A stretch of DNA of 62,440 nt from an uncultured Pelagibacteraceae bacterium (GTDB lineage: Bacteria > Pseudomonadota > Alphaproteobacteria > Pelagibacterales > Pelagibacteraceae). The stretch lies in NCBI GenBank assembly GCA_902551445.1, contig CACDDB010000001.1, forward strand, positions 1 to 62,440, given 5' to 3'. How positions within the stretch are numbered: the first letter of the stretch is position 1; each line of letters begins with the position of its first letter. The notes beneath the pieces were generated by a model. The model had not been told where the DNA came from, ran no database searches, and saw only the letters and a program-made list of their open reading frames with translations. The translations under genes were made by a program, and so were the position numbers. This document shows positions 5,329 to 14,459 of the stretch, piece by piece.

Positions 5329-5405
<77 letters not shown>

Positions 5406-7681: not shown

Positions 7682-7756
7682 GGTCCCTTCGTCTATCGGT
7701 TAGGACACATGGTTTTCATCCATGAAAGAGGGGTTCGATTCCCCTAGGGACCGCCA
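7682..7756 (+). tRNA. tRNA-Glu(TTC)
   Basis: GGTCCCT acceptor stem, anticodon arm CATGG-TT-TTC-AT-CCATG, GGTTCGATTCC T-arm, encoded CCA. Confidence 0.97.
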
Positions 7757-11957: not shown

Positions 11958-12706
11958 TTTATTTAAAGTTTATATCCAGATTAATGAAGTTTTTTAAATC
12001 TTTATTAACAATTACACAGTTATCTAATCATAAATTTCAAAACAAAAACCAAGTAACTAATGCGAAAATTATATTGAATCTTTTAAAAAATAAAAATTTT
12101 TCTCCCAATTATATCGTTGATGTGGGTAGTGGTTATGGAGAATGGACTAAAAAATTATTAAAGGTATTTCCTAAATCTGATTTTTACCTTTTTGATGCAG
12201 ATAAAAATAACATTGAAAAACTCGATATCTTGAAGAAAAAGAATAAGAATATTAATTACAAAATATGTTTATTAACAGATGATAATAAGACATATAATTT
12301 TTATAATATGGGATACGGTTCATCAATTTTTGAAGAACAAACTTCACATAATAGAAATGTTGAAAAAATTACGTCTACTACATTAGATCAAGAGCTTCCC
12401 GATGAATTAAAAGAGCAAACTAATAATTTAATCAAGCTTGATGTACAAGGATCTGAATTAAAAGTACTGGAAGGTTTAAGAGAGACAATTAATACATTCG
12501 AAGTTATTATTTTAGAAGTTTCTATACATAATTATAATAAAGATTCACCACTATTTGATAAAATAATGAACTATATGAATGAAAAAGATTATAGATTATA
12601 TGATTTGTTTGATTTAAAGCGTTTAGGTGATAACAATTCTTTCCTTGTTCAATTTGATTGTGTCTTTGTAAGAAAAAATTCTGAACTTTTTAAAGTTAAA
12701 TTTTAA
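11954..12706 (+). CDS. FkbM family methyltransferase
   Basis: VDVGSGYG SAM motif, TTLD, IKLDVQGSEL..LEG. Confidence 0.92.
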   Translation: MIYLKFISRLMKFFKSLLTITQLSNHKFQNKNQVTNAKIILNLLKNKNFSPNYIVDVGSGYGEWTKKLLKVFPKSDFYLFDADKNNIEKLDILKKKNKNINYKICLLTDDNKTYNFYNMGYGSSIFEEQTSHNRNVEKITSTTLDQELPDELKEQTNNLIKLDVQGSELKVLEGLRETINTFEVIILEVSIHNYNKDSPLFDKIMNYMNEKDYRLYDLFDLKRLGDNNSFLVQFDCVFVRKNSELFKVKF

Positions 12707-13649
12707 TTTTATTTAAAGCATTATTTTTAAATATATTTGCTTCTCTTATATATCTTCTAACCATTTGTGTTGTTTTGTGTCCTGTCATTGCCATAATACT
12801 TCTTTCATCAGCTCCTGATTCAGCGGCAACTGTTGCAAAACCTGATCTTAAACTATGTCCTGAGTAATTCTTATTTTCTATACCCGCTAGATTCAAATAA
12901 TCTTTAATTATTAAAACTACTGACTGATCTGTTAATCTATTGTTTGTTAATACGGATCCTTTTGCAAATCGTCTAAAAATTGGACCAGATTTTATATTTG
13001 ATAACTCTATCCATCTTTTTAGGTTAATTACTGGACAGTATTTTTCATTTGTGAAGTAGGGTAGACCTTTTATCATTCCTTCGCCAAATTGATCTGTTTT
13101 TGACCTTTTAATAGTTATTTTAACCCCCTCTTGAACGAATTCTAAATCCTCATGATCGATTGATATTAATTCGGTTCTTCTAAATCCGCCTCCAAAACCA
13201 ACTAACAAAATTGTTTTGTCTCTAATTTTTTTTATTTCTTCTGCTTCTTGATCATCAATAACATTAATAAGTGATTTTAAATGATTGATTAATATAGGTT
13301 TTTTTCCTTTTTGGATGCTTCCTTTAACCCTTCTAATACCCATTAAATTTTCTATAATTATGGGATGTTTGGTATCTAGATAATGCCCTTTAAGCCTATG
13401 AATCATGCTTATTGATACTAATCTTCTTCGTAAAGTACTGATTTTTGAACTTTTTGATAGATGCGTTAGGTAAAGAGATATTATTTTAGGTTCAGTTGGA
13501 AGGGAATCAAAGCCATGCTTTACACAAAATGCACCAAAATCCCTAAAATCTGACTTGTAAGCTCTTAAAGTGTTATTAGACTTAGAGCTTTTGAGGTTAT
13601 TTAATGTTTCCTCATGAAGTGATTTTATGTCTGTAACAAGTTCATTCAT
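12696..13649 (-). CDS. Site-specific tyrosine recombinase (Cre/IntA-like)
   Basis: N-terminal S.NTLRAY.SD; catalytic set FRRTE (R), RSKTDQ (K), GHSLRSG (HxxR), TGHK (H), RRY (Y) all intact. Confidence 0.93.
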   Translation of the reverse strand: MNELVTDIKSLHEETLNNLKSSKSNNTLRAYKSDFRDFGAFCVKHGFDSLPTEPKIISLYLTHLSKSSKISTLRRRLVSISMIHRLKGHYLDTKHPIIIENLMGIRRVKGSIQKGKKPILINHLKSLINVIDDQEAEEIKKIRDKTILLVGFGGGFRRTELISIDHEDLEFVQEGVKITIKRSKTDQFGEGMIKGLPYFTNEKYCPVINLKRWIELSNIKSGPIFRRFAKGSVLTNNRLTDQSVVLIIKDYLNLAGIENKNYSGHSLRSGFATVAAESGADERSIMAMTGHKTTQMVRRYIREANIFKNNALNKIKI

Positions 13650-13733: not shown

Positions 13734-13898
13734 ATGCCAAAATATGCTTTAATTGGATTGATAGTAGTAATTGCAACATTTGTAATTATAAATCATTGGT
13801 CAAAATTAACGGAAAAAACAAAAAATAAAATAATTGCATCAATATTTGGAATAATTGCAATAGGATTTGTAGTAATTATTGCACTGTTAATATTTTAA
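13734..13898 (+). CDS. Small two-helix membrane protein (54 aa; below the ORF-track cutoff)
   Basis: MPKYALIGLIVVIATFVIINHWSKLTEKTKNKIIASIFGIIAIGFVVIIALLIF*: two hydrophobic segments joined by a basic loop. Confidence 0.7.
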   Translation: MPKYALIGLIVVIATFVIINHWSKLTEKTKNKIIASIFGIIAIGFVVIIALLIF

Positions 13899-13902
13899 AA
13901 TG

Positions 13903-13920
13903 TTTTCCACATTATCCACA
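13903..13920 (+). promoter_or_regulatory. Two abutting DnaA boxes
   Basis: TTTTCCACA (13903-13911) and TTATCCACA (13912-13920), both matching TTWTNCACA, in non-coding DNA. Confidence 0.55.
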
Positions 13921-13992
13921 ACTGTTAAAAAGTCAGTAAATTCAACAATAAAGTGATACATACAACCATATCAGTCTGATATTGTTAAATTG

Positions 13993-14177
13993 AATTAAGG
14001 GGCAACCCTTAACTGGCCGATTGGGGAAAAACCGAGAGGTTCAAGCCCAGGGGGCAGAAAGCTCTACAAAGCAGCGCTAAACATGTGGAGCGGAAGGCAT
14101 GGCGGTAGCGCATTAACGACGTGCCAAAACTACTGTTCTTTGTGCCGTAAAAAGCACAAGGAAACAGGGTTTTTCTT
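13993..14177 (+). ncRNA. Structured non-coding RNA upstream of ogt (family unassigned)
   Basis: ~52% GC by hand count in an AT-rich background; five hairpins, a GNRA tetraloop, complementary loops GCGCTA/TAGCGC, and a terminal hairpin followed by a T-tract. Confidence 0.8.
14133..14177 (+). terminator. Rho-independent terminator-like hairpin closing the ncRNA
   Basis: CTGTTCTTTGTGC-cgtaaaaa-GCACAAGGAAACAG followed by GGTTTTTCTT. Confidence 0.6.
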
Positions 14178-14183
14178 CATAAA

Positions 14184-14459
14184 ATGTTCAAAAAAGGCAC
14201 AAAATTTCAAATAAAAGTCTGGAAATACCTTTTAAAAATACCCAAAGGAAAAGTAAAAACCTATAAACAAGTTGCTATAGCTATAAATAGACCGAAATCT
14301 GCTCGTGCTGTTGCTAACGCATGTGGAAAAAACCCGTATGCACCTAGGGTACCGTGTCATAGGGTAATTAGATCTGATGGGACTCTTGGCGGTTTTTCTG
14401 CTGCTGGAGGAATAAATGCTAAAAAAAAACTCTTAAAAAAAGAAGGTTTTTTGCTCTAA
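14184..14459 (+). CDS. ogt: Minimal O6-methylguanine-DNA methyltransferase (MGMT C-terminal domain only)
   Basis: T.FQ.KVW, IPKG...TY, ARAVANAC, active-site PCHRV. Confidence 0.92.
   Translation: MFKKGTKFQIKVWKYLLKIPKGKVKTYKQVAIAINRPKSARAVANACGKNPYAPRVPCHRVIRSDGTLGGFSAAGGINAKKKLLKKEGFLL

What the first reader, a model, noticed from the sequence alone, without database searches (positions are those of the whole stretch)
13993..14177. High-GC structured RNA with a kissing-loop pseudoknot upstream of ogt
Seen: ~52% GC. P1 is TTAAGGG-GCAA-CCCTTAA (13995-14012, GNRA loop). P2 is CTGG..CCAG (14013-14050) enclosing a small hairpin. P3 is GCTCTACA/TGTGGAGC (14061-14091) with loop GCGCTA (14074-79). 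P4 is GGCATG/CGTGCC (14096-14125) with loop TAGCGC (14106-111), the exact complement of the P3 loop. P5 is a terminator-like hairpin ending a few nt before the ogt ATG. I could not match it to tRNA, tmRNA, RNase P, SRP, 6S or the lysine, glycine, SAM or cobalamin riboswitches. From memory, an abundant putative sRNA between a hypothetical gene and MGMT was reported in Pelagibacter metatranscriptomes without a known function. Inference: a compact tertiary-folded RNA, either an orphan riboswitch/attenuator controlling ogt read-through, a ribozyme, or an independent ncRNA.
Basis: partly seen in the sequence, partly recalled or inferred. Interest (0 to 1): 0.78.

Follow-up and report, generated by a model that had tools for sequence, protein, structure and literature searches.

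The report
IMES-2 RNA, a satellite landing site
This is a copy of IMES-2, an already catalogued folded RNA gene of the ocean bacterium SAR11 whose job is unknown; it likely works as a self-contained RNA rather than as a switch for the neighbouring repair gene, and small phage-parasite elements carry its back three quarters beside their integrase and likely insert into it and rebuild it.

Summary
The element is real but known: 13988-14127 matches Rfam IMES-2 (RF02035) end to end, 154.8 bits against a cut-off of 54.7. This scan met it before on other DNA. The kiss is a perfect 5-bp helix in 81 of 85 distinct copies, in seven sequence versions. It is not an ogt switch: ogt follows in 62 of 120 loci, a convergent gene in about 51; a 3' hairpin, a promoter motif and DnaA-box-like repeats go with it in four gene contexts; no antiterminator was found. 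Not found in the papers searched: one clade of phage-satellite integrases carries the 3' 150 nt of IMES-2 (21 of 21 readable loci), starting at window 14032, with intact kiss and terminator but no 5' part; four contigs run on into the host gene that follows IMES-2. IMES-2 is thus most likely an attB site that satellites rebuild. The sister clade sits beside glycine riboswitch fragments. The RNA's molecular function remains unshown.

The parts
13903..13920 (+). Tandem DnaA-box-like 9-mers (one perfect TTATCCACA at 13912-13920), head to tail
   Evidence: At least 8 of 9 matches in 44 of 50 loci at -74 to -87, background 0.2%; 64 of 89; 85 of 118. Binding by DnaA is inferred, not shown.
13943..13958 (+). 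Conserved CAAC..GTGATA motif, predicted -35 region of the RNA's own promoter
   Evidence: G, G, A, T of GTGAT in 100% and the upstream C in 99% of 89 distinct upstream sequences (the rows were anchored on this motif).
13975..13980 (+). Predicted -10 hexamer (TnTGAT), 16 nt after GTGATA; predicted start near 13987-13992
   Evidence: Weakly conserved profile; RNA contigs of three studies begin at 13991-13992 (contigs cannot prove a start).
13988..14127 (+). IMES-2 core (Rfam RF02035)
   Evidence: 154.8 bits, cut-off 54.7, model 1-141 of 141; single copy in G000.
13995..14012 (+). P1 hairpin with GNRA tetraloop
   Evidence: 100% of cells paired, 4 of 7 pairs covary; GNRA in 84 of 85 distinct copies, the other cut by a contig end.
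14013..14057 (+). P2 (14013-25 with 14046-57), 4x4 internal loop and inner hairpin 14030-14041
14032..14046 (+). Predicted attB core: block where homology to the satellite-borne copies begins
   Evidence: Homology starts at this hairpin in most of 21 integrase-linked fragments; 14-16 nt exact match with the window in 7 of 10 attP-type sequences tested.
14061..14091 (+). P3; loop carries the 5' strand of the kissing helix (14074-14078)
14096..14125 (+). P4; loop carries the 3' strand of the kissing helix (14107-14111)
14128..14177 (+). P5 hairpin and U tract, predicted intrinsic terminator, outside the Rfam model
   Evidence: A 3' hairpin of unrelated sequence in 50 of 50 loci; RNA contigs of three studies end at 14173-14174. 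The strict scan did not call it.
14184..14459 (+). ogt-like gene (91 aa, Pfam DNA_binding_1); neighbour, not part of the RNA unit
12696..13649 (-). Chromosomal tyrosine recombinase; neighbour, not the satellite integrase
   Evidence: Pfam PF00589; present at this locus with or without the RNA; G000 has no match to the satellite integrase at 1e-30.

Best explanation
The element is a complete copy of the known SAR11 RNA gene IMES-2, likely transcribed on its own from a predicted promoter to a predicted terminator as an RNA of about 185 nt whose P3 and P4 loops are predicted to pair, likely acting in trans through its shape rather than switching ogt, and likely serving as the chromosomal insertion site of a clade of phage satellites that rebuild it. 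Shown: family membership, covarying helices and kiss, four gene contexts, presence in RNA libraries, loss in about half of the genus, satellite-borne 3' copies and host junctions. Inferred: (1) the kiss forms within one molecule and docks P3 on P4, with the P1 GNRA loop as a second contact; (2) the folded RNA binds a housekeeping protein as decoy or scaffold (about 35%; no dedicated partner gene was found, and Hfq, CsrA and 6S RNA were not found); (3) a regulator, perhaps DnaA, binds the tandem boxes (about 35%); (4) the satellite integrase crosses over in the inner P2 hairpin, so the host 5' part joins the element's 3' part and a whole RNA is regenerated while the old 3' part is displaced to the far junction (about 88%). 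ogt would be read only by leak through the terminator.
For: Rfam match. 42 pairs, 94.7% of cells paired, 29 pairs with changes on both sides, 0 of 500 shuffles, slid controls 30-43%. Kiss perfect in 81 of 85, seven versions, spacing 32-35 nt. Contexts: mnmA 35, SNase/SRAP 10, SelO 3, ogt 2 of 50. 3' hairpin in 50 of 50. Upstream motifs in all contexts. RNA contigs cover the gene in 8 of 8 runs laid and almost none of the upstream DNA. Satellites: 21 of 21 readable loci with integrase identity of 73% or more carry the 3' fragment, none has P1 or the promoter motif, and they form one clade (support 99); 12 have arm repeats on both sides and 4 run into the host gene c0; all 13 attP-type copies keep a perfect kiss, in four versions; one contig is a 6527-bp circle; genes are integrase, primase-helicase and small terminase; host G024 keeps an element-type tail behind its only copy (score 44-46 against medians 14-16).
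Against: In the window's own genus ogt is the usual next gene (32 of 50; 62 of 120), and RNA contigs bridge P5 into ogt, so some cis effect on ogt is possible. The RNA is dispensable: found in 79 of 149 genomes of the genus and in none of 14 and 12 genomes of two other genera. No partner protein was found (G000 is only 56% complete). All RNA data are contigs: no strand, ends or level, and no DNA control was laid. No contig shows the left junction (whole RNA followed by an element), and none of 401 genomes holds a close integrase (best 48%). The 21 contigs are partly redundant (9 distinct sequences among 13 attP-type copies). The intact kiss in satellites could reflect recent capture from unsampled hosts rather than selection. 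The -10 is weak; the boxes form no wider regulon.
Confidence: 0.72

Rival explanations
1. The loops pair between molecules (L3 of one with L4 of the next), so that IMES-2 builds an RNA-only oligomer or cage like manA, ROOL or GOLLD RNAs.
For: Both loops share the pattern GUAGnnC, a near two-fold kiss; the L3 hexamer is self-complementary in 58 of 85 copies. Short RNAs assemble through intermolecular kissing loops in bioRxiv 10.64898/2026.07.01.735769 (passages; IMES-2 is not mentioned there).
Against: 27 of 85 copies are not palindromic, so only the L3-L4 match is conserved; P3 and P4 are joined by 4-5 nt and keep a fixed spacing, which fits side-by-side docking in one molecule (inference). 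Covariation cannot tell the two apart.
Confidence: 0.2
2. A cis riboswitch or attenuator that controls read-through into ogt.
For: ogt lies about 10 nt behind the U tract here and follows the RNA in 62 of 120 loci; some RNA contigs bridge into ogt.
Against: Convergent or unrelated genes follow in the other contexts; P5 sequence is unrelated between lineages; no antiterminator; ogt persists without the RNA; other genes are inserted between RNA and ogt in L105 and L106.
Confidence: 0.03
3. A self-cleaving or other ribozyme.
For: Compact fold with a kiss and invariant unpaired purines.
Against: No Rfam ribozyme match; no joints or sharp internal ends listed in RNA contigs (weak); no retroelement or repeat context.
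Confidence: 0.06
4. IMES-2 has little use for the host and is kept and spread mainly as a satellite-associated RNA (for example a factor of satellite or helper-phage control).
For: Patchy presence, at least 4 gains or losses within the genus, four loci, satellites carry and can swap its 3' part.
Against: Satellites lack the 5' part and promoter; whole copies were found on host chromosomes, one per genome, mostly without any element nearby; no match in 50,697 phage records.
Confidence: 0.1
5. A base-pairing small RNA, a Csr-type sponge or a stand-in for 6S RNA.
For: Stand-alone gene with a terminator; no 6S RNA found in 5 SAR11 genomes, so the role may be vacant.
Confidence: 0.08

Closest known systems
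IMES-2 RNA motif (Rfam RF02035; Weinberg et al. 2009 Nature 462:656, PMID 19956260: reference seen, text not held; content recalled)
   Same: Full-length match with the same P1-P4; marine, SAR11-restricted in the genomes searched.
   Different: The Rfam model shown stops at 14127 and has no pseudoknot, P5, promoter or attachment role. Whether the 2009 paper or its supplement draws the kiss could not be checked.
Integration into RNA genes with 3' replacement (tRNA, tmRNA, csRNA, ffs; PMC12540744, passages)
   Same: Integrase next to a 3' piece of a host RNA gene; arm repeats; host junctions.
   Different: The target is an orphan, dispensable RNA; the replacement is about 150 nt with three helices, a kiss and a terminator; the sister clade sits beside glycine riboswitch fragments.
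Marine phage satellites (VEIMEs, PICI-like; PMC9618062, passages; PMC11876622, passages)
   Same: Tyrosine integrase, primase-helicase, small terminase, a few kb, Pelagibacter hosts.
   Different: The passages read name no IMES-2 or riboswitch target; their datasets were not read and may list insertion sites.
SAR11_0636 motif (Rfam RF01827; PMC2704228, section 10 read)
   Same: SAR11 intergenic element proposed as a separate RNA.
   Different: Different locus and fold; G073 carries both at different places.
manA, ROOL, GOLLD RNA assemblies; purine and lysine riboswitch loop-loop contacts (the latter recalled)
   Same: Kissing loops and GNRA loops as tertiary contacts.
   Different: No sequence family match; no assembly or ligand shown for IMES-2.

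Membership tests
IMES-2 (RF02035) | Covariance model score above the gathering cut-off over the whole model | tested here: met
   154.8 against 54.7 bits, positions 1-141
IMES-2 (RF02035) | P1-P4 structure supported by covariation | tested here: met
   29 of 42 pairs with changes on both sides, 49 sequences
IMES-2 (RF02035) | Present in marine RNA libraries | tested here: met
   Contigs in 8 of 8 RNA runs laid; relatives are summed, level and strand not measurable
Cis riboswitch / attenuator | Fixed position 5' of functionally related genes on the same strand | tested here: not met
   ogt 62 of 120, convergent c0 51 of 120; 2 of 50
Cis riboswitch / attenuator | Alternative fold that removes the terminator | tested here: not met
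   Penalty 12.2 kcal/mol here; 5.5-24.7 in 97 loci
Cis riboswitch / attenuator | Ligand binding | not testable with these tools
   Needs probing
Self-cleaving ribozyme | Match to a known ribozyme family, or cleavage | tested here: inconclusive
   No Rfam match; cleavage not testable
attB in an RNA gene | Element carries a 3' identity block beside its integrase, lacking the 5' part | tested here: met
   21 of 21 readable loci
attB in an RNA gene | Element-host junction at the target | tested here: met
   L407, L410, L414, L455 run into host c0; L414 goes on to metC and an MFS gene (named by likeness)
attB in an RNA gene | Both junctions on one molecule, with the gene restored | tested here: inconclusive
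   No left junction seen; only a scar in G024
Phage satellite (VEIME / PICI-like) | Integrase, primase-helicase and small terminase on a small circle | tested here: met
   Pfam hits in several contigs; L417 circle of 6527 bp, which has no Terminase_2 hit among its four proteins scanned
Phage satellite (VEIME / PICI-like) | Packaging by a helper phage | not testable with these tools
   Not tested
6S RNA / Hfq sRNA / Csr sponge | Family match, or presence of the partner protein | tested here: not met
   (5 genomes each)
SAR11_0636 (RF01827) | Model match at this locus | tested here: not met
   No match in G000; separate locus in G073
DnaA-controlled promoter | Conserved DnaA boxes at fixed distance, and DnaA binding | tested here: inconclusive
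   Boxes conserved, DnaA present in 5 of 5; consensus recalled; binding not testable

The most novel reading that the evidence does not exclude
One family of marine satellite integrases has moved from tRNA and tmRNA targets to structured regulatory RNAs: one branch inserts into IMES-2 and rebuilds it with its own P3-P5 half, thereby swapping kissing-loop alleles among SAR11 lineages; the sister branch inserts into glycine riboswitches. IMES-2 itself would be a DnaA-linked, highly expressed RNA that satellites must keep working.
Probability: 0.55. Interest if true: 0.62.

Novelty: new member of a known kind. Interest (0 to 1): 0.45.

Why it matters
The RNA is not new, and this copy is ordinary. 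Two things raise it above a plain Rfam hit. First, IMES-2 is (recalled) among the most abundant unexplained RNAs in seawater, and the natural loop variants, the corrected gene boundaries and close relatives with and without the gene make its function testable. Second, satellites appear to use it as an insertion site and keep a 150-nt working replacement, which suggests the RNA matters and widens the known target range of integrases to orphan RNAs and probably riboswitches in the most abundant ocean bacterium. Island finders that look only at tRNA and tmRNA would miss such elements.

Tried and rejected
SAR11_0636 as the same RNA: rejected. A diverged RNA at the empty sites: no Rfam match to E 1 in 10 loci, no profile hit in 28 ogt loci or in 1.2 Mb of G023. 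Distant homologues: none in 148 other alphaproteobacterial families; only scores near 20 bits in the sister family. Phage copies: first pattern 0 hits, no phage record; L277 is most likely an assembly chimera, as the RNA sequence cuts a cyanophage-type methylase frame at the contig end. oriC: the RNA lies far from the skew minimum in G012 and the ogt locus lies near the skew maximum in G023. Regulon of the tandem box: none clear (one search used a pattern one letter too long and is void). Target-site duplication at mnmA: the look-alike TTTTCCACA there belongs to the end of the convergent gene. Partner gene: 25 ORFs shared by G012 and G000 but absent from G023, nearly all transport or metabolic by their sequence and order (not scanned), none a clear RNA-binding candidate. 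The tree is a quick tree on uneven fragments; only 'at least 4 changes' is used. The P5 pair probabilities used wrong indices and are ignored. L113 (G365), a degenerate copy, was left out of the kiss count. Paper searches that found no IMES-2 function or attachment report; one search found nothing on SAR11 DnaA boxes. Subscription papers and supplements are not covered.

Full report
Observation. The region is a GC-rich island (49.7% against 28.9%) that folds far better than shuffles (z -5.44).

Identity. Positions 13988-14127 match Rfam IMES-2 over the whole model, 154.8 bits against 54.7. Five earlier notes of this scan reached the same name on other genomes. The founding paper was not held; I saw only its reference, so what it says on abundance or on the kiss is recalled or unknown. 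The paper searches found no study of its function.

Structure. On 49 aligned copies, 42 pairs hold in 94.7% of cells, 29 with changes on both sides; slid controls give 30-43% (relatedness inflates the shuffle control). The kiss is 5 bp; the sixth pair holds in 34 of 49. In 85 distinct cores it is perfect in 81 and has one mismatch in 4, in seven matched versions with three positions changing together, at a spacing of 32-35 nt; the degenerate copy L113 was left out. P1 keeps a GNRA loop in 84 of 85. The L3 hexamer is a palindrome in 58 of 85, so self-kissing is possible in many copies but is not the conserved feature.

Gene unit. A 3' hairpin of unrelated sequence, mostly with a U-rich tail, follows in 50 of 50 loci. 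Upstream, GTGAT sits 41-44 nt before P1 with a weak TnTGAT 16 nt later, and a pair of 9-mers resembling the DnaA box (consensus recalled) lies further up: at least 8 of 9 matches in 44 of 50 loci against 0.2% background, 64 of 89, 85 of 118. These motifs occur in all four contexts. Contigs of 8 RNA runs cover the gene, with almost no cover upstream; several begin at 13991-92 and end at 14173-74, one with a poly(A) loose end. Contigs cannot prove ends, strand or level, and no DNA control was laid. A few bridge into ogt.

Context and spread. In a family-wide set the upstream gene is mnmA in 35, an SNase gene in 10, SelO in 3 and the small ORF before ogt in 2 of 50. Against the independent reading, ogt is the usual neighbour in the own genus (32 of 50; 62 of 120 overall). 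But ogt stays at that locus without the RNA in the 28 loci examined from genomes lacking it, and no antiterminator competes. The RNA was found once per genome in 66 of 121 family genomes and 79 of 149 of the genus, not in 148 other alphaproteobacterial families; all 80 listed of 120 pattern hits are SAR11. A rough tree needs at least 4 gains or losses in the genus. It is therefore dispensable. Hfq, CsrA and 6S RNA were not found in 5 genomes, four of which carry IMES-2, and no partner gene stood out.

Attachment site. One of two viral contigs with an IMES-2 pattern has a tyrosine integrase starting about 100 nt from a copy that lacks its 5' part. Of 80 metagenome loci kept for relatives of this integrase (89 confirmed), 24 have 73% identity or more; 21 carry the 3' fragment and 3 are too short to read. 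Homology to hosts begins at the inner P2 hairpin, window 14032. None has P1 or the promoter motif, and the 17 long enough for the tree form one clade with support 99. Twelve have TGTGAC arm repeats on both sides, as an attP would; four run into the host gene that follows IMES-2 at the mnmA locus, as a right junction would; the rest are cut short. All 13 attP-type copies (9 distinct; L408 counted by its element-type tail) keep a perfect kiss in four versions, with a 3' hairpin and U-rich tail. The elements encode primase-helicases and small terminases; L417 is a 6527-bp circle. This fits the VEIME satellites of PMC9618062 (passages). Host G024 has an element-type tail behind its only copy. Below 73% identity, 25 loci show a glycine riboswitch motif, 14 a tRNA end, 7 tmRNA, 2 neither, 8 too short (by short patterns; Rfam confirmed glycine aptamers in 9 of 20 loci scanned, and tmRNA beside 2 of 5 genomic relatives). 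Missing: a left junction, and any close integrase in 401 genomes. The window's copy is uninterrupted, and its neighbouring recombinase is a different, chromosomal one.

Mechanism. Best reading: a stand-alone RNA that folds compactly through the kiss and acts in trans by shape, most likely on a housekeeping protein (inferred, about 35%), whose gene is also a satellite insertion site that is rebuilt on entry (about 88%). Rivals: RNA-only oligomer 0.2, satellite-serving RNA 0.1, sponge or 6S-like 0.08, ribozyme 0.06, ogt riboswitch 0.03.

Comparison and verdict. It is a member of IMES-2. Insertion into RNA genes is a known kind (tRNA, tmRNA, csRNA, ffs; PMC12540744, passages); IMES-2 or riboswitch targets were not found or in the passages read, but unread supplements may list them. 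The finding as flagged is a known family; the attachment role is the new part. Interest 0.45.

Noticed in passing
L423-L452, L462, L468, L469 (upstream of the integrase start): The sister clade of the IMES-2 integrases lies beside glycine riboswitch fragments in 25 loci, apparently at two different aptamers, cut at a CCGAAGG hairpin that resembles the IMES-2 core CCGAGAGG. Possible insertion into riboswitches.
   Followed up: partly
L113 (G365:C1:309520-309703): Degenerate IMES-2 at a fifth locus in a complete genome: L3 kept, L4 complement and upstream motifs lost.
   Followed up: partly
L062 (G024), just behind P5: About 50 nt resembling the satellite tail, with the same loop version as attP L404, L408, L411: likely a relic of an inserted and deleted element.
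   Followed up: partly
L031-L042 (SAR11_0636 motif): The Rfam SAR11_0636 'RNA' holds a TGTGGATAA 9-mer in most copies and faces a divergent gene with a GTTC-N7-GTTC repeat at its start (LexA-type box, recalled); it may be partly a DNA-level control region.
   Followed up: no
   Followed up: partly
window 13734-13898 and L083-L132: The slot between recombinase and ogt is a hot spot for small, interchangeable membrane ORFs (54-70 aa) and other genes.
   Followed up: no
L398 5100-6131 and 9599-11011: The satellite contig carries a 343-aa secreted-looking protein without Pfam hit, a CII-like gene and a second, unrelated integrase: probably two elements in tandem.
   Followed up: no
G073, G316, G012, G040, G023: No 6S RNA, Hfq or CsrA found in five near-complete SAR11 genomes.
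   Followed up: no
window 5329-5402 and 7682-7753: Two tRNA genes by Rfam.
   Followed up: no
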